Notes: generated from the letters alone by a model not told the origin. DNA of 64,000 nt from Patescibacteria group bacterium (GCA_043808365.1 JAZDEZ010000007.1:9637-73636); one strand, 5' to 3'. Counted from the first letter of the stretch, positions 48,376 to 52,542 are shown. Made by a program: numbers and translations.

Positions 48376-48572
48376 AGTCGCATATTATTTATTTAAATAT
48401 TTTTTTAATGGAATTTTTCTATCGAGTCGAGAATGTAGCCGACGTACTCCTCGTACAGCTTCTCAAAGTCTGCCCCCAGGCTGATCACTCCCCGCCAGAC
48501 CTCCTCGAAATCCCGAGCGGTAGCAGGGGATTTTTTTAGCTAATATTGGAGATCCCTCATTCCATTCGGGAT

Positions 48573-48599
48573 GAGATTGTTGAATTATTCAACAATCTC
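48573..48599. repeat. perfect 12-bp-stem palindrome with no U-tract
   Basis: The sequence is gagattgttgaa-tta-ttcaacaatctc. It lies between the leuS stop and the tsaC start. No T-run follows on either strand, so it is not a canonical terminator. Confidence 0.5.
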
Positions 48600-48657
48600 A
48601 ATTATACACAATATCCGTCGTTGGTTGCATGGGTCATTCGCTAGTCGGTAGTATTCC

Positions 48658-48717: not shown

Positions 48718-51700
48718 TCAAACCGCGATAGTGACTATCCGGCCTTTGATATACTTGGCCATCTTCGGCCTTTTACCGTCCAGCCATTTCTTAACCTTAT
48801 CACTGGCCAATGCCAGCCTCAGTACTTCTTCTTCATTGGCTTCCGTGGGGAAAGTTAGTTGGTCGCGCACCTTGCCATTGATCTGAACGGGAATAGAAAT
48901 CTCCTTTTCAATTAACCTTTTCTCATCTGCCACCGGCCAGGGCTCGCTGTCAATTAAATCCTGATGGCCAAGCTTTTCCCATAATTCCGCGGCAAGATGC
49001 GGAGCGAAAGGGGAAAGCAGTTTGAGGAATATTTCAATTTCATCCTTTGCCACCAAAAACTCCGCTGTCAAAACTTTTCCCTGGACAGTGACATCCTTGA
49101 AAAAAATCATCAACTGCGAAATGGCCGTATTAAACCTAAAATTTTCGATGTCCTCGGTGACCTTTTTAATTGTCTTATGCAATATTTGTTTCCGGCCCTC
49201 ATTTTGGACTAACACCCGCTTGTCGCCTTTGGCTAAGAGGGATGCGATGGTATTCCCCCATTGCCAAATGCGTTCCAAGAAACGGGTCATGCCGACAATC
49301 CCATTCGTATTCCACGGCTTGGCATCCTCAAACGGGCCCATGAACATCTCATACATGCGCATGGCGTCAGCGCCAAATTTTTTGATGACGTCATCAGGAT
49401 TGACCACGTTTCCGCGCGACTTGGACATTTTCTGGTTATCCTCGCCGAGGATCAAGCCCTGGTTTTTTAATTTAAGGAACGGCTCGTCCCCGCACTCTTT
49501 AGGCACCACGCCGATGTCGAATAAAAATTTGTAAATGAAGCGGGCGTACAAAAGATGCAACACGGCATGTTCCGCTCCGCCGACGTACAGGTCAACCGGC
49601 AGCCACTGTTTCAACTTCTCCGGGTCGGCCAGTTGTTTTTCATTTTTCGGATCGCAATAGCGCAGGAAATACCAGTTTGACCCGGCCCACTGCGGCATGG
49701 TGTTAGTTTCACGCTTGGCCTTGCCCCCGCACTGCGGACATTTCGTGTTCACCCATTTATCAATGGAGGCTAAAGGGGATTCACCCGTACCGGTCGGCTC
49801 GTACTTCTTGACATTCGGCAATTCGAGGGGTAAATCCTCTACCGGCACGGGCACCAGTCCGACCGGCATAGGCTTAATATCATTTAGGATTTCAGGGAAC
49901 TCAAGCACCCCGGCTGGTGCGTTGAAATGCCCTTTGCCGGAAAAAATCCTGACATCCGCTCCGAGCGGCTGGTAAGTCTTTTTGACTTCTAGCGGGATGT
50001 AGGGGTCGTTATCCGAAAAATAAATGAATGCATGTTTTGCCAGCTCTTTCACTTTTTTCCAATCGATTACCGTTTCGTTGATGGAAAAAATATCATTGAT
50101 CGAGTTCTCGGCCAGGCCGATTTTCTTCAAGGCGTCGCGTTTTTGCCCCTTACCGGTCGGTGCTATTAAAAATAACTTTTTTACCTTGATACTTTCCCGC
50201 TCTATGAACTTACAAATGACAGGTGCCGCCAAGCTATGGCCGATAAAAACAACATTATCGCCCAGGAGCGGTTTGAGCTTCCGTAATTCGTCCAGCCACT
50301 CTTCCAATCTTGGCCGGTCTGCATTCGGCAAATCCGGCGTTAATACCGTGTGGCCCAGCTTTTCCAGCGTTTCCCTGAACCATGGCAGCCAGTTTTCCTT
50401 TGAATGCCCGAAGATCCCATGCACGACGACAAACGTCTGCTTGTATTTCTTGGCGCACTCATCGCAATGCACGATCGGGATCGGTTCGCCCCAATACCGC
50501 TGACGCGAAAACAGCCAGTCACGGAGCTTGTAATTTACAGAAATTCCGGCTTTTCTTTTCGGGAAAAATGGTAGAATTTCCGGTATAGATTTTATCCCCT
50601 TGGCTTCGCTGAAATGATATTTACCAGGGATGAGATGAATTTCAGCTTCTGGCAGATTTTTTTTATAATACACCATGCTGTCGACGGGGATATATGGATC
50701 ATTTTCTGAGTGCACGATGATAAAACGATTCGCCAGTGTACGTATCTTTTCCCAATTCAAATTTTGTGTCTGATTCATTCTTTCAACCGAACCCCAATCA
50801 TAATCCGGATATTCTTTTTTTAGTTTCTCCCAATCTTGCAATGGGTTTGTCGGTGCAACAAAAATGACTGTATCGACTTTTTTACCCGATTCCTGGAGAT
50901 AATACAAAATCGAAGCGCACCCGAGACTATGCCCAACCAGTACCGAACTTTCATTTACCTGCGTGTCATAATGACGCAAAAAATCATTCCACGATTCTAA
51001 TGTCGGATGGCCTTCGCCCGGCATGGTTGGCACTATTGTCTCCCAACCATATCTTGCCAATTCCTCTTTTAACCACGGGAACCAATTTTCTCGTTTATGC
51101 CCACCAATCCCGTGGACGACAAGGCAAGTGTTTTCTGTCTGGCCTGCCTTTGAATTTAGTTGTTTTATTATTACGTCTTTAAACTTCACCGAGTCCATGC
51201 CGTCATACTGGCCGGAATTTACCATCTTCCCGTCACCAGAATAGCACCCCTCCCTCGCCCCTTTGGGGAGAGGGGTTGGGGGTGAGGGGGGGTCAATAAC
51301 TTTAACAATCGGTAATTTGAATTTCTTGGCAAACTCGAAATCCCTTTCATCATGCGCCGGTACGGCCATAATGGCACCGGTACCATATGAGCTAAGGACG
51401 TAATCCGCTATCCAAATCGGGATTTTTTTATCATTGGCCGGGTTGATGGCATAAGCGCCGGTGAACACGCCGGTTTTTTCCTTGGCCAGGTCAGTACGGT
51501 CAAGGTCTGATTTCCGTGTTGCTTCAATCTGATATTTTCCGACAATACTTCGTTGTTCCGGAGAGGTAATGTCATTTACTAACGGATGCTCCGGCGACAG
51601 AACGATGTACGTCGCGCCGAACAGGGTATCGGGCCGTGTGGTAAACACCTCAATAACATCGGACTCTAAACATTGGACTTTGGACTTTAAACCAGCCACC

Positions 51701-52461
51701 CATTGAGAATTTTCGGCTCTTTGTTCTCTGTTTTTTGTCCAAAGTTCAAAGTTGACCAACGCGCCCTCGCTCCGGCCGATCCAGTTTTTCTGCAATAGCT
51801 TAATATTCTCCGGCCAATCGAGTTTGTCTAAGCCGTGCAGCAATCTTTCGACATACCTTTCGTCCGTAATTTTTACCAGCCACTGCTTGATCTGCTTCTT
51901 CGTCACGACTGTACCGCATCGCTCGCATTTGCCATTAACCACTTCTTCGTTAGCCAGGCCGGTTTTGCACGACGGGCACCAGTTGATCGGCGCAAAAGCC
52001 TCATAAGCCAAACCATGCTTGAACAGCTGCACGAAAATCCACTGTGTCCATCTATAATACTTCGGATCAGACGTCACCACTTCCCGATCCCAGTCATAAG
52101 AAAAACCAAGTGATTGGATCTGTTTCCTCATGTTTTTGATGTTCTTCGCAGTAGTCACGGCGGGATGTGTGCCAGTCTTGATGGCGTAGTTCTCTGCCGG
52201 CAAGCCAAAGGCATCGAAACCCATCGGGTGCAGTACCGCTTTGCCCTTCATGCGCAAATATCGGCACATGATATCAGATGCCGTATACCCTTCCGGATGG
52301 CCGACATGGAGGCCTTGGGCCGAAGGATATGGGAACATGTCCAGGACATACTTTTTCGAGCCTACCGCCTTAGCACTATCGTCAATAGAAAAAAGACGAC
52401 GGCGCTCCCACTCGCGTTGCCATTTTTTTTCGACCGGAGAATGATGATATATCTTCGCCAT
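48718..52461 (-). CDS. leuS: leucyl-tRNA synthetase carrying two in-frame alpha/beta-hydrolase domain insertions
   Basis: The track ORF starts at 52473. I prefer ATG 52461 (MAKIYHH) because GGGAG lies 7 nt upstream. LeuS hallmarks present: the HIGH motif (GLHVGHPEGY), CP1 editing domain (TTRPDTLFGATY; AVPAHDERDFEFA), YKLRDWLFSRQRYWGEPIP and KMSKS (QKMSKSRGN). The length of ~1247 aa is about 400 aa more than the ~860 aa I recall for typical bacterial LeuRS. Confidence 0.9.
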   Translation of the reverse strand: MAKIYHHSPVEKKWQREWERRRLFSIDDSAKAVGSKKYVLDMFPYPSAQGLHVGHPEGYTASDIMCRYLRMKGKAVLHPMGFDAFGLPAENYAIKTGTHPAVTTAKNIKNMRKQIQSLGFSYDWDREVVTSDPKYYRWTQWIFVQLFKHGLAYEAFAPINWCPSCKTGLANEEVVNGKCERCGTVVTKKQIKQWLVKITDERYVERLLHGLDKLDWPENIKLLQKNWIGRSEGALVNFELWTKNREQRAENSQWVAGLKSKVQCLESDVIEVFTTRPDTLFGATYIVLSPEHPLVNDITSPEQRSIVGKYQIEATRKSDLDRTDLAKEKTGVFTGAYAINPANDKKIPIWIADYVLSSYGTGAIMAVPAHDERDFEFAKKFKLPIVKVIDPPSPPTPLPKGAREGCYSGDGKMVNSGQYDGMDSVKFKDVIIKQLNSKAGQTENTCLVVHGIGGHKRENWFPWLKEELARYGWETIVPTMPGEGHPTLESWNDFLRHYDTQVNESSVLVGHSLGCASILYYLQESGKKVDTVIFVAPTNPLQDWEKLKKEYPDYDWGSVERMNQTQNLNWEKIRTLANRFIIVHSENDPYIPVDSMVYYKKNLPEAEIHLIPGKYHFSEAKGIKSIPEILPFFPKRKAGISVNYKLRDWLFSRQRYWGEPIPIVHCDECAKKYKQTFVVVHGIFGHSKENWLPWFRETLEKLGHTVLTPDLPNADRPRLEEWLDELRKLKPLLGDNVVFIGHSLAAPVICKFIERESIKVKKLFLIAPTGKGQKRDALKKIGLAENSINDIFSINETVIDWKKVKELAKHAFIYFSDNDPYIPLEVKKTYQPLGADVRIFSGKGHFNAPAGVLEFPEILNDIKPMPVGLVPVPVEDLPLELPNVKKYEPTGTGESPLASIDKWVNTKCPQCGGKAKRETNTMPQWAGSNWYFLRYCDPKNEKQLADPEKLKQWLPVDLYVGGAEHAVLHLLYARFIYKFLFDIGVVPKECGDEPFLKLKNQGLILGEDNQKMSKSRGNVVNPDDVIKKFGADAMRMYEMFMGPFEDAKPWNTNGIVGMTRFLERIWQWGNTIASLLAKGDKRVLVQNEGRKQILHKTIKKVTEDIENFRFNTAISQLMIFFKDVTVQGKVLTAEFLVAKDEIEIFLKLLSPFAPHLAAELWEKLGHQDLIDSEPWPVADEKRLIEKEISIPVQINGKVRDQLTFPTEANEEEVLRLALASDKVKKWLDGKRPKMAKYIKGRIVTIAV
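49873..50439 (-). other. LeuRS insertion 2: YdeN/RBBP9-like serine-hydrolase domain
   Basis: The inserted sequence is QTFVVVHGIFGHSKENWLPWF...VVFIGHSLAAPV...FIYFSDNDPYIP...FSGKGHFNA. It sits between IPIVHCDECAKKYK and PVPVEDLPLELP. The Ser (GHSLA), Asp (DND) and His (GHF) triad is present. Confidence 0.7.
50555..51138 (-). other. LeuRS insertion 1: YdeN/RBBP9-like serine-hydrolase domain
   Basis: The inserted sequence is TENTCLVVHGIGGHKRENWFPWL...VLVGHSLGCAS...FIIVHSENDPYIP...IPGKYHFSE. It sits between ...IIKQLNSKAGQ and KRKAGISVNYKLRDW. The Ser, Asp and His triad is present. Confidence 0.7.
51245..51290. repeat. GC-rich REP-like hairpin, copy 3 of 3, lying in frame inside leuS
   Basis: The sequence is cacccctccctcgcccctttggggagaggggttgggggtgaggggg. 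On the coding strand it is translated as DPPSPPTPLPKGAREG, in the variable loop after KFKLPIVKVI. Confidence 0.5.
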
Positions 52462-52542
52462 ACTGACTCCCATAGTACCATTTTTTTACACTATTTTTCA
52501 AGGAATGCAAAAAAACACCCCACGATGGTCGTTATTTACCCG

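What the first reader, a model, noticed from the sequence alone, without database searches (positions are those of the whole stretch)
48718..52461. Leucyl-tRNA synthetase with two paralogous alpha/beta serine-hydrolase domains inserted in frame
Seen:
- The ORF has all LeuRS hallmarks: HVGH, the CP1 editing domain, YKLRDWLFSRQRYWGEPIP and KMSKS. It is about 400 aa longer than the ~860 aa I recall for typical bacterial LeuRS.
- The excess is two ~190-aa blocks. Insert 1 (nt 50555-51138) lies just before the KLRDW segment. Insert 2 (nt 49873-50439) lies just after IPIVHCDEC.
- The two blocks are homologous to each other: VVHGIGGHKRENWFPWL and VVHGIFGHSKENWLPWF.
- Both keep a full Ser-Asp-His set: GHSLG and GHSLA; SENDPYIP and SDNDPYIP; GKYHF and GKGHF.
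- This pattern is typical of the YdeN/RBBP9 serine-hydrolase family.
- The LeuRS sequence resumes seamlessly after each insert. There are no intein junction residues (no terminal His-Asn, no block A/B motifs).

Inference: these are functional esterase or thioesterase-like modules grafted onto surface loops flanking the catalytic core. Possible roles are extra hydrolytic proofreading of aminoacyl esters or an unrelated moonlighting activity. I know of no described LeuRS with such domains.
Basis: partly seen in the sequence, partly recalled or inferred. Interest (0 to 1): 0.75.

Follow-up and report, generated by a model that had tools for sequence, protein, structure and literature searches.

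The report
LeuRS carrying two embedded serine hydrolases
An essential leucyl-tRNA synthetase from a candidate-phyla-radiation bacterium has two complete, apparently active YdeN/RBBP9-type serine hydrolase domains inserted in frame, and it belongs to a large, apparently undescribed class of such synthetases that host small hydrolase enzymes in several alternative loops.

Summary
The ORF at 48718-52473 (-) is one contiguous 1251-aa bacterial LeuRS with intact HIGH, KMSKS and CP1 editing motifs. It carries two PF06821 (YdeN/RBBP9) alpha/beta hydrolase domains. Insert 1 sits at the C-terminal boundary of CP1. Insert 2 sits between the two CxxC knuckles after RQRYWG.

Both inserts keep Ser-Asp-His. 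Insert 1 superposes on YdeN (TM 0.85) and evolves under dN/dS of about 0.05.

It is not an intein, intron, split gene or likely chimera. The same domain is embedded in contiguous LeuRS ORFs in 17 of 80 species-representative loci and in about 55 protein clusters, all Patescibacteria where a taxon is named bar one Gammaproteobacteria-labelled MAG. It occupies at least six different slots, often alongside NUDIX or Ham1-like domains.

In one syntenic relative, two free-standing hydrolase genes sit just upstream of an insert-free leuS. The window's two inserts belong to different domain clades. Insert 2 is a clean insertion of about 595 nt absent from the closest relatives, and the C+D pair was found nowhere else.

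Function is unproven. The family's known chemistry is hydrolysis of alpha-aminoacyl substrates with a free amine. Slot variability favours tethered small-molecule hydrolases over a geometric extension of tRNA editing. No paper describing this architecture was found.

The parts
48718..52473 (-). Complete leuS ORF (1251 aa plus stop). The probable true start is the ATG at 52461.
   Evidence: TIGR00396 scores 1003 bits. The frame is contiguous.
51145..52473 (-). LeuRS N-terminal half, aa 1-443. It holds the Rossmann fold first half with HVGH (52297-52308), the Zn-1/CP1-hairpin knuckles CPSC and CERC (51967-51978, 51916-51927), and the CP1 editing domain (51157-51789) with TTRPDT (51625-51642) and AHDERD (51340-51357).
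   Evidence: Model pLDDT is mostly above 85.
50542..51144 (-). Insert 1 ('slot C'), aa 444-644. This is a PF06821 serine hydrolase domain (aa 447-640, nt 50554-51135) plus linkers, placed at the C-terminal boundary of CP1 just before VNYKLRDW. Predicted triad: Ser516 (GHSLG, 50920-50934), Asp592 (SENDP, 50695-50709), His620 (KYHF, 50611-50622).
   Evidence: The stand-alone model has pLDDT 95.8. Its best fold match is YdeN 1uxo, TM 0.85/0.88. dN/dS is 0.054 against L003. GC3 is 0.40 against 0.56-0.62 in the core.
50452..50541 (-). 30-aa LeuRS 'bridge' between the inserts, SVNYKLRDWLFSRQRYWGEPIPIVHCDECA. It forms the start of the second Rossmann half and the first CxxC of the second zinc knuckle.
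   Evidence: One search aligns it to Tt 414-443. One search gives coordinates.
49861..50451 (-). Insert 2 ('slot D'), aa 675-871. This is a PF06821 serine hydrolase domain (aa 678-868, nt 49870-50442) plus a Lys-rich N-linker and an 'MPVG' C-linker, placed between HCDEC and LVPVPVEDLP. Predicted triad: Ser747 (GHSLA, 50227-50241), Asp823 (SDNDP, 50002-50016), His849 (KGHF, 49924-49935).
   Evidence: pLDDT is ~86-98 in the full-length model. At DNA level it is a clean ~595-nt insertion relative to L001, L003 and L004. GC3 is 0.58, like the host.
48718..49860 (-). LeuRS C-terminal half, aa 872-1251. It holds the second CxxC (CPQC, 49729-49740), TMPQWAGS, KMSKS (49417-49431), the anticodon-binding domain and the C-terminal domain. 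The leucine-specific domain is absent.
51670..51741 (-). A ~23-aa extra loop at the N-terminal boundary of CP1 (aa ~245-268, 'slot A' position), absent from T. thermophilus LeuRS and modelled with low confidence. This is the position where many relatives carry a hydrolase or a Ham1-like domain.
   Evidence: One search shows a gap in Tt opposite query ~246-268. One search gives pLDDT below 50 for residues 258-269. Searches show slot A use in relatives.

Best explanation
Shown: this is the organism's genuine, contiguous leucyl-tRNA synthetase, from a Patescibacteria/CPR bacterium. It has an intact synthetic site and an intact CP1 editing site. Two complete lid-less alpha/beta serine hydrolase domains of the YdeN/RBBP9 family (PF06821) have been inserted into it. 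One lies at the C-terminal boundary of CP1. The other lies between the two CxxC knuckles of the second zinc module. It is one member of a large class of CPR LeuRS that host small hydrolase domains (PF06821, NUDIX, Ham1-like and unidentified ones) in at least six alternative loops.

Inferred mechanism: each insert folds as an autonomous domain on flexible linkers. Each uses its Ser-Asp-His triad to hydrolyse an alpha-aminoacyl ester or amide with a free alpha-amine, which is the only chemistry demonstrated for this family. I think the substrates are most likely diffusible aminoacyl compounds connected to LeuRS chemistry. One option is release of leucine or other hydrophobic amino acids from scavenged peptides or esters for charging. 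Another is disposal of mis-activated or edited by-products such as aminoacyl esters or thiolactones. On this view the tether provides co-expression and co-localisation with the synthetase, not a precisely aimed third editing pocket for the tRNA 3' end.
For: Identity and integrity:
-.

Independent fold:
- Insert 1 alone models at pLDDT 95.8 and matches YdeN and RBBP9.
- Insert 2 has pLDDT ~86-98 in context.

Catalytic competence and selection:
- Ser is kept in 38 of 38 embedded domains, His in 38 of 38 and Asp in 36 of 38.
- dN/dS for insert 1 is 0.054, against 0.078 for CP1 and 0.02 for the core.

Family chemistry:
- RBBP9 forms an aminoacyl-Ser intermediate, needs a free alpha-amine and cleaves aa-AMC and N-terminal residues (PMC8866121).
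- It also cleaves the valyl ester valacyclovir (Shenoy 2020, cited in PMC7730578).

Link to LeuRS specifically:
- In a scan seeded only with a hydrolase motif, 17 of 80 loci were fusions and all 17 were to LeuRS.
- In the syntenic locus L002, a free-standing copy 47% identical to insert 1 overlaps the start of an insert-free leuS, and a second copy lies two genes upstream.
- That free-standing copy nests within the embedded clade.

Against a geometry-dependent role:
- The domain occupies slots A0, A, B, C, D and E.
- The same domain lineage sits in different slots in sister LeuRS: L013 in slot B and L070 in slot D, each 59% identical in both domain and core.
- NUDIX and Ham1-like small-molecule hydrolases use the same slots.
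- CP1 motifs are retained in ~67 of 75 hosts.
- There is no charge shift relative to free-standing copies.
Against: - No biochemical data exist for any bacterial or archaeal PF06821 protein, so the substrate inference rests on human RBBP9, which is only ~20% identical.
- RBBP9's alpha-amine-binding Glu108 is not clearly conserved in the alignment.
- Free-standing copies show no conserved aaRS neighbourhood. Only L002 and possibly L066 lie near a LeuRS among 64 loci. The family therefore has a LeuRS-independent role in most genomes.
- The trees are NJ without support values.
Confidence: 0.4

Rival explanations
1. Extra proofreading. One or both hydrolase domains deacylate mischarged aminoacyl-tRNALeu, or hydrolyse non-cognate aminoacyl-adenylate, in cis or in trans. 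They would act as a third quality-control site beside CP1.
For: - The family hydrolyses alpha-aminoacyl esters and amides with a free amine, and aa-tRNA is such an ester.
- All slots cluster around the CP1 boundaries, the 'neck' and the adjacent zinc module rather than the termini.
- That neck lies next to the synthetic site and tRNA C74, and it governs the CP1 swing (PMC4138327).
- All fusions found are to LeuRS.
Against: - At least six slots, and slot changes between sister lineages, make a conserved path for the CCA end unlikely.
- CP1 editing motifs stay intact.
- NUDIX and Ham1-like domains in the same slots have no obvious aa-tRNA substrate.
- Embedded domains are not more basic than free-standing ones, and insert 1 has net charge -5.
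Confidence: 0.2
2. Pure passengers. The hydrolases, like the NUDIX and Ham1-like inserts, have housekeeping roles unrelated to leucylation. The CP1 region of LeuRS is simply an unusually permissive insertion hot-spot in CPR. Embedding gives constitutive expression in tiny genomes or protects against gene loss.
For: - Several unrelated enzyme families share the same loops.
- One relative, P0270, carries three different enzymes.
- Free-standing homologs are widespread in CPR and DPANN with no conserved neighbourhood.
- The mosaic, cassette-like pattern: insert 1 is 85% identical to L003 but 59% to L001, while the core is 93% to both. Insert 1 also has deviant GC3.
Against: - The fusions are exclusive to LeuRS in a hydrolase-seeded scan, 17 of 17, although IleRS and ValRS share the CP1 architecture.
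- Embedded copies form clades separate from the bulk of free-standing ones and have about a dozen clade-specific residues.
- In L002, leuS is tightly coupled to two free-standing copies.
Confidence: 0.3
3. Non-catalytic modules. The domains are retained as structural or regulatory elements, for example a docking surface, an amino-acid sensor or a stabiliser of the CP1 swing, without turnover.
For: RBBP9 was first known as a binding protein. The inserts sit on the CP1 hinge, whose mechanics matter for activity.
Against: The full Ser-Asp-His triad, the HG oxyanion motif and the GxSxG elbow are conserved in essentially all 38 embedded copies. That is hard to explain without catalysis.
Confidence: 0.05
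4. Artefact or mobile element: a chimeric assembly, an intein, an intron-encoded ORF or a transposon-borne passenger.
For: The exact protein is not in the 15-billion-protein collection. The C+D pair was not found elsewhere. Read support could not be checked.
Against: - The ORF is in frame and continuous, and LeuRS resumes exactly after each insert.
- Each junction type occurs independently in other assemblies, including 200-840 kb contigs and a single-cell genome.
- There are no intein or Hint Pfam hits and no His-Asn junction.
- There are no Rfam intron hits.
- There are no flanking repeats or target duplication.
- dN/dS is 0.05.
Confidence: 0.03

Closest known systems
Canonical bacterial LeuRS (T. 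thermophilus 1H3N/2BYT; E. coli 4AQ7/4ARC)
   Same: Same enzyme family and domain order: Rossmann fold with HIGH and KMSKS, a zinc-containing CP1 hairpin, a CP1 editing domain with the T-rich motif and the conserved Asp, an anticodon-binding domain and a C-terminal domain.
   Different: It has two extra ~190-aa hydrolase domains, at Tt 408/414 and at Tt 443. It also has a short extra loop at the N-terminal CP1 boundary, and it lacks the leucine-specific domain.
YdeN (B. subtilis, 1UXO) and human RBBP9 (2QS9, 7OEX), Pfam PF06821 Ser_hydrolase
   Same: Same minimal lid-less alpha/beta hydrolase fold (TM 0.85 and 0.78), the same Ser-Asp-His triad and GxSxG elbow, and a similar size.
   Different: The known members are free-standing ~185-aa proteins. 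Here the domain is inserted inside another enzyme, twice. Sequence identity is only 20-24%. Conservation of RBBP9's substrate-binding residues is not established.
Free-standing trans-editing factors and appended editing domains of aaRS (AlaX, YbaK/ProXp, ProRS INS, D-Tyr-tRNA deacylase)
   Same: The concept of an additional hydrolytic module associated with a synthetase that acts on aminoacyl esters.
   Different: The folds and catalytic mechanisms are unrelated. None is an alpha/beta serine hydrolase, and no sequence similarity was detected. Activity on tRNA is not shown here.
[quoted passage not shown]
   Same: A serine alpha/beta hydrolase specific for alpha-aminoacyl esters. Its natural substrate is a by-product of aaRS editing (PMC11312131). 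It serves as a functional analogy for a by-product-disposal role.
   Different: It belongs to a different alpha/beta hydrolase family, has a lid, is ~290 aa and is not fused to a synthetase. This is an analogy only.
aaRS with extra enzymatic domains, e.g. NCBIfam NF040702 'isoleucine--tRNA ligase, N-acetyltransferase domain-containing'
   Same: Precedent for a class Ia synthetase carrying an unrelated enzyme domain. The model appears in the hit list.
   Different: A different synthetase and a different domain (GNAT). I did not examine where that domain is attached.

Membership tests
Bacterial leucyl-tRNA synthetase (TIGR00396 leuS_bact) | Whole-protein score above the curated equivalog cutoff | tested here: met
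   1003.3 bits against a cutoff of 548.4. E 7.9e-215 to T. thermophilus LeuRS 1h3n.
Bacterial leucyl-tRNA synthetase (TIGR00396 leuS_bact) | Class I signature motifs HIGH and KMSKS | tested here: met
   HVGH at aa 56-59 and KMSKS at aa 1015-1019.
Bacterial leucyl-tRNA synthetase (TIGR00396 leuS_bact) | CP1 editing domain with the T-rich motif and the conserved Asp | tested here: met
   PF13603 E 4.6e-61. TTRPDT at 278-283 and AHDERD at 373-378.
Bacterial leucyl-tRNA synthetase (TIGR00396 leuS_bact) | Leucylation and editing activity | not testable with these tools
   No second leuS lies in the 64-kb window. Activity is inferred from intact motifs only.
Pfam PF06821 Ser_hydrolase (YdeN/RBBP9) | Each insert scores above the Pfam gathering threshold on its own | tested here: met
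   71.1 and 69.6 bits against a cutoff of 22, covering profile positions 2-168 of 172.
Pfam PF06821 Ser_hydrolase (YdeN/RBBP9) | Lid-less minimal alpha/beta hydrolase fold matching solved members | tested here: met
   The insert 1 model (pLDDT 95.8) matches 1uxo at TM 0.85/0.88, rmsd 1.9 A, and RBBP9 at TM 0.78. Insert 2 was not fold-searched on its own, but it shows a confident alpha/beta pattern in the full-length model and is 35% identical to insert 1.
Pfam PF06821 Ser_hydrolase (YdeN/RBBP9) | Ser-Asp-His catalytic triad in register | tested here: met
   S516/D592/H620 and S747/D823/H849. The corresponding columns are invariant or nearly so in 38 embedded and 65 free-standing copies.
Pfam PF06821 Ser_hydrolase (YdeN/RBBP9) | Hydrolase activity on alpha-aminoacyl substrates | not testable with these tools
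   Known only for human RBBP9 (PMC8866121). Conservation of its Glu108 amine-binding residue is unclear.
Intein | Hint/intein splicing domain, N-terminal Cys/Ser/Thr and C-terminal His-Asn followed by Cys/Ser/Thr | tested here: not met
   No intein or Hint family among the Pfam hits. The junctions read ...GQTE|NTCLVV... / ...KAGIS|VNYKL... and ...DECA|KKYKQT... / ...MPVG|LVPVP..., with no His-Asn.
Group I/II intron or other structured mobile RNA in a CPR gene | Match to an intron covariance model, or flanking repeats | tested here: not met
   No Rfam hits in the window at gathering thresholds. There are no junction-flanking repeats. The inserts are in frame and under purifying selection.
Split LeuRS (Aquifex-type alpha/beta subunits) | Two separate genes encoding the two halves | tested here: not met
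   The window has a single ORF. The apparent 'halves' among relatives were gene-calling artefacts (P0001, P0012) or a frameshift (L005).

The most novel reading that the evidence does not exclude
CPR LeuRS may be a platform on which small hydrolase cassettes (PF06821, NUDIX, Ham1-like and others) are repeatedly captured, exchanged by recombination and relocated between loops of the same protein. That would be domain-level mobility inside an essential gene. In this reading, the serine hydrolases form a previously unknown, LeuRS-coupled quality-control or substrate-supply activity, such as a third hydrolytic site handling aminoacyl species that CP1 does not clear. The window, with two hydrolases from different clades in two slots, would be the most elaborate hydrolase-bearing form seen so far.
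Probability: 0.2. Interest if true: 0.88.

Novelty: new variant of a known kind. Interest (0 to 1): 0.72.

Why it matters
Aminoacyl-tRNA synthetases are among the most conserved and best-studied enzymes, and the bacterial LeuRS architecture is treated as fixed.

A widespread, lineage-specific class of LeuRS with active-looking enzymes inserted at the mechanically critical CP1 neck raises several questions:
- How much insertion can that hinge tolerate?
- Do organisms with tiny genomes that scavenge their amino acids need extra aminoacyl hydrolysis at the synthetase?
- How does a whole domain get inserted, swapped and moved between loops of an essential protein?

The finding also gives the first genomic functional lead, a link to LeuRS, for the poorly understood YdeN/RBBP9 family. 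Finally, it flags a systematic annotation problem. Gene callers truncate these genes at internal Met codons, and pipelines label them 'alpha/beta hydrolase' or 'class I tRNA ligase family protein'.

Tried and rejected
1. Split-gene origin. P0001 (791 aa) and P0012 (890 aa) looked like C-terminal halves starting in an inserted domain. Reading the loci showed contiguous ORFs of more than 1060 aa and 1158 aa. L005's two pieces are a simple frameshift.

2. Other C+D double-hydrolase LeuRS. A junction-spanning query against metagenome contigs gave L083 and L084, but these are NUDIX (B) plus hydrolase (D). The exhaustive representative search gave no hit above 360 bits. The only double found, P0241, is a tandem pair in slot A.

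3. Exact-sequence look-ups of the window protein with both possible starts found nothing.

4. Conserved neighbourhood of free-standing copies. No gene family recurs in more than 6 of 64 loci. The aaRS neighbours are one bacterial LeuRS (L002), one archaeal-type LeuRS by sequence inspection (L066) and one IleRS by sequence inspection (L077). This is anecdotal.

5. Flanking repeats, target duplication or microhomology at the junctions. Only chance-level repeats were found. A 20-nt similarity (50441-50460 against 51317-51336) reflects Lys-rich AKK(F/Y)K linkers.

6. Electrostatic signature for RNA binding: none.

7. The first full-length MSA (A3) mis-aligned the short hydrolases, so insert 1 was poorly modelled. 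I re-modelled it alone.

8. The first genome scan with the 19-sequence alignment failed because it had no conserved stretch. I repeated it with six closer sequences.

9. Literature searches for any description of LeuRS with hydrolase or NUDIX inserts, or for a YdeN function, found nothing relevant.

10. The ~130-aa slot-D domain of P0002, P0013 and P0018 gave no convincing Pfam assignment: one sub-threshold hit, no family above gathering score.

Full report
**1.

The minus-strand ORF 48718-52473 is a single uninterrupted frame of 1251 aa.

The ORF scores 1003 bits on the NCBIfam equivalog for bacterial LeuRS, against a cutoff of 548. It aligns end to end with T. thermophilus LeuRS 1h3n at E 8e-215. 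The HIGH motif (HVGH), the CP1 T-rich motif (TTRPDT), the editing Asp motif (AHDERD), KLRDW, RQRYWG and KMSKS are all present.

Pfam reports two PF06821 Ser_hydrolase domains. Scanned alone, the inserts score 71.1 and 69.6 bits against a gathering score of 22. They are 35% identical to each other, E 8e-40.

Against 1h3n, the extra sequence falls at query 443-644, between Tt residues 408 and 414, which is the C-terminal boundary of CP1. It also falls at query 675-871, at Tt residue 443, between HCxxC and the VPVPE...CPxCG half of the second zinc knuckle. The leucine-specific domain (Tt ~592-637) is missing.

**2. The inserts are real, folded and apparently catalytic**

Insert 1 hits B. subtilis YdeN at E 2e-15 and human RBBP9 at E 1e-6 by sequence. 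Modelled alone with a 109-sequence single-domain MSA, it gives pLDDT 95.8. It superposes best on YdeN 1uxo (TM 0.85/0.88, rmsd 1.9 A) and on RBBP9, including the RBBP9-Phe complex 7oex (TM 0.78).

In the full-length model (residues 1-1190, pLDDT 82, pTM 0.80), the LeuRS core and insert 2 are confident. Insert 1 is poor there only because MAFFT misplaced the short homologs in that MSA.

The predicted triads are S516/D592/H620 and S747/D823/H849. Across 38 LeuRS-embedded copies, Ser is kept in 38, His in 38 and Asp in 36, the same as in 65 free-standing copies.

Between the window and its relative L003, insert 1 has dN/dS 0.054. CP1 has 0.078 and the catalytic core 0.022. dS is ~1.1-1.8, so the estimates are rough. 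The insert is therefore not a decaying passenger.

**3. Not an intein, intron, split gene or likely chimera**

No intein or Hint family appears among the Pfam hits, and the junctions lack His-Asn. Rfam finds nothing in the window. No repeats flank the inserts.

At DNA level, insert 2 is a clean ~595-nt insertion. In L001, positions 2114 and 2116 are adjacent where the window has 49855-50449. The insertion replaces the 'GN' codons between HCxxC and VPVPE, with native LeuRS sequence on both sides and no target duplication.

Both junction types occur independently in other assemblies, including contigs of 212-840 kb and the single-cell genome of Ca. Paceibacter normanii. Read support itself could not be checked.

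**4. It belongs to a large class for which no description was found**

A search with the two-insert segment returned ~20 Patescibacteria proteins combining LeuRS and PF06821 domains, several also with NUDIX.

A scan of one genome per GTDB species, seeded only with the hydrolase motif ENW[FL]PW[LF][KR], returned 80 loci. In 17 of them the domain is embedded in one contiguous LeuRS ORF of 914-1197 aa, two of them cut by a contig end and one by a frameshift. None is fused to anything else.

The hosts are labelled Patescibacteria, Liptonbacteria, Saccharibacteria, Levyibacteriota, Paceibacter, Harrisonbacteria, Parcubacteria, Magasanikbacteria and Falkowbacteria. One locus (L042) comes from a MAG labelled Gammaproteobacteria. 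The other 63 loci hold free-standing genes of ~185 aa in CPR bacteria and DPANN archaea.

An exhaustive HMMER pass over 1.84 billion cluster representatives added ~55 LeuRS-plus-hydrolase clusters.

Mapping the breaks onto a LeuRS HMM gives at least six slots:

| Slot | LeuRS HMM position | Location |
|---|---|---|
| A0 | ~207 | Upstream of slot A |
| A | ~240 | WIGRSEGA to TTRPDT, the N-terminal CP1 boundary |
| B | ~366-374 | A C-terminal surface loop of CP1 |
| C | ~410 | C-terminal CP1 boundary (window insert 1) |
| D | ~444 | Second zinc knuckle (window insert 2) |
| E | ~652 | Seen in P0259 |

The same slots also hold other domains:
- NUDIX in slot B in L001, L003, L005, L042, L075, L082 and others.
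- Ham1/ITPase-like domains in slot A in P0263, P0270 and P0269.
- Unidentified domains in slot D of P0002, P0013 and P0018, slot B of L012 and slot A of P0283.
- P0270 (1344 aa) carries Ham1-like, NUDIX and the hydrolase together.

Gene callers often start these genes at an internal Met, as with P0001 and P0012. Sources name them 'alpha/beta fold hydrolase' or 'class I tRNA ligase family protein'. Six literature searches found no description of this architecture (and 48 for the domain-insertion survey).

**5. Evolutionary pattern**

In an NJ tree, which has no support values, the embedded domains cluster apart from the bulk of free-standing copies. The window's two inserts fall in different clades. 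Insert 1 groups with the slot-C set (L003 85%, L004 70%, L005 63%, L001 59% identity). Insert 2 groups with a mixed B/D/A clade, where its best matches are ~50-52% identical. They are therefore not a recent in-situ duplication.

The four closest LeuRS relatives all lack insert 2. Three of them carry NUDIX in slot B instead.

The window is mosaic with respect to these relatives:

| Window segment | Identity to L001 | Identity to L003 |
|---|---|---|
| Catalytic core (aa 872-1050) | 93% | 93% |
| Insert 1 | 59% | 85% |
| Anticodon-binding / C-terminal part | 82% | 38% |

Insert 1 has GC3 0.40, against 0.56-0.62 in the core and 0.58 in insert 2. L003's insert shows the same dip, 0.39 against 0.56. 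This looks like cassette-level recombination.

L013 (slot B) and L070 (slot D) are reciprocal best matches in both the domain (59%) and the core (59%). The same domain lineage thus sits in different slots in sister hosts.

The locus L002 is syntenic with the window (leuS, then Sua5, then MFS). It has an insert-free 814-aa LeuRS whose start overlaps the stop of a free-standing hydrolase, P0121, that is 47% identical to insert 1. A second free-standing copy lies two genes upstream. P0121 nests inside the embedded clade. This is a Rosetta-stone-type link between the hydrolase and leuS.

The C+D pair itself was found nowhere else. The only other double is a tandem pair in slot A, in P0241.

**6. 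How it most likely works**

The only biochemistry known for PF06821 is from human RBBP9. It is a Ser-nucleophile enzyme that forms an aminoacyl-enzyme intermediate, requires a free alpha-amine and cleaves aa-AMC and N-terminal residues (PMC8866121). It also cleaves the valyl ester valacyclovir (Shenoy 2020, cited in PMC7730578). This chemistry, hydrolysis of an alpha-aminoacyl ester or amide, fits several LeuRS-related substrates.

The CP1 neck, where slots A and C lie, is next to the synthetic site and tRNA C74, and it controls the CP1 swing (PMC4138327). That fact, together with the exclusivity of the fusions to LeuRS, argues for a functional link.

Four results argue against a precisely aimed third editing pocket:
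- The domain works from six different slots and changes slot between sister lineages.
- It shares these slots with nucleotide house-cleaning enzymes.
- CP1 motifs stay intact in ~67 of 75 hosts.
- The embedded copies are no more basic than free ones.

I therefore favour tethered, autonomous alpha-aminoacyl hydrolases acting on diffusible substrates linked to LeuRS chemistry (confidence 0.4). Candidate roles are amino-acid supply from scavenged peptides or esters, and disposal of mis-activated or edited by-products. [quoted passage not shown]

The rivals are pure passengers in a permissive hot-spot (0.3), true extra aa-tRNA proofreading (0.2), a non-catalytic role (0.05) and an artefact (0.03). 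The identity, fold, triad conservation, selection and distribution are shown. Substrate and coupling are inferred.

**7. Verdict**

The finding is real and unusual. It is a new architectural variant of a very well-known enzyme, and the window holds the only example found with two hydrolases in two separate slots. Function remains open but is directly testable.

Noticed in passing
L001:70-3252, L003:1-2862, L005, L042, L075, L082/L083, L084, L163:3197-6673: Many CPR LeuRS carry a NUDIX domain (PF00293) in the CP1 C-terminal surface loop (slot B), often together with the serine hydrolase. The window's slot B is uninserted and has the same length as in T. thermophilus.
   Followed up: partly
P0263 aa 245-462, P0270 aa 247-449, P0269 aa 188-393 (P0313 aa 247-451 looks similar by eye but was not scanned): A Ham1/ITPase-like domain (PF01725, E 1e-7 to 6e-6) is inserted at the N-terminal CP1 boundary (slot A) of some LeuRS. 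P0270 (1344 aa) carries Ham1-like, NUDIX and the Ser hydrolase in one LeuRS.
   Followed up: partly
P0002 aa ~366-500, P0013 aa ~271-400, P0018 aa ~197-332; also L012 ORF aa 539-663, P0283 aa 258-429, P0362 aa 314-532: Further inserted domains of ~125-220 aa occupy the same LeuRS slots and have no convincing Pfam match (only sub-threshold hits). The slot-D one shares a conserved 'ETRALNP(D/E)EPDRYFG' motif. Their identity is unknown.
   Followed up: partly
P0001 vs L001:70-3252; P0012 vs L163:3197-6673: Gene callers start these fused genes at an internal Met inside an inserted domain, producing truncated 'alpha/beta hydrolase' or 'class I tRNA ligase family' proteins. The true ORFs are contiguous full-length LeuRS.
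   Followed up: yes
window 48411-48630 (leuS-Sua5 spacer): The spacer holds degraded remnants of a 156-aa gene of unknown function that is intact between leuS and Sua5 in L001 (3272-3742). One remnant covers 35 aa at 80% identity and another the first 10 aa at 90%. This looks like a pseudogene or deletion scar.
   Followed up: partly
window 50554-51135 (insert 1) vs rest of gene; L003 hydrolase segment: Insert 1 has GC3 0.40, against 0.56-0.62 in the LeuRS core and 0.58 in insert 2. L003's orthologous insert shows the same dip (0.39 against 0.56). This could mean foreign origin, recombination or a codon-usage effect. It is unexplained.
   Followed up: partly
window 48721-49320 (aa 1051-1251) vs L003: Mosaic divergence. 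The catalytic core is 93% identical to L003, but the anticodon-binding and C-terminal part is only 38% identical (82% to L001). This suggests recombination within leuS among related lineages.
   Followed up: partly
window 51670-51741 (aa ~245-268): A ~23-aa low-confidence loop (TKNREQRAENSQWVAGLKSKVQCLES) sits exactly at slot A, where relatives carry hydrolase or Ham1-like domains. It may be a linker scar of a lost insert or a pre-adapted loop.
   Followed up: no
window 49417-49431 region; Tt LeuRS 592-637: The leucine-specific domain is absent from this LeuRS. The alignment to 1h3n jumps from Tt ~592 to ~637 around KMSKS.
   Followed up: no
L005:5030-5075: The LeuRS of this relative is broken by a single frameshift in the slot-A linker, giving two overlapping ORFs. 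This is either a sequencing error or a pseudogene.
   Followed up: partly
P0241 aa 23-212 and 223-413: One LeuRS carries two hydrolase domains in tandem within slot A, plus a NUDIX-like insert in slot B (by sequence motif; not Pfam-scanned). This is a different way of doubling the domain from the window's C+D arrangement.
   Followed up: partly
L014-L082 (free-standing copies): Free-standing PF06821 genes closest to these inserts are concentrated in small-genome symbionts: CPR bacteria, and DPANN archaea such as Woesearchaeota, Micrarchaeota, Aenigmatarchaeota and Nanoarchaeota. They have no conserved gene neighbourhood.
   Followed up: partly
window 1-64000: ARAGORN found no tRNA or tmRNA genes and Rfam gave no gathering-level hits anywhere in the 64-kb window.
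   Followed up: no
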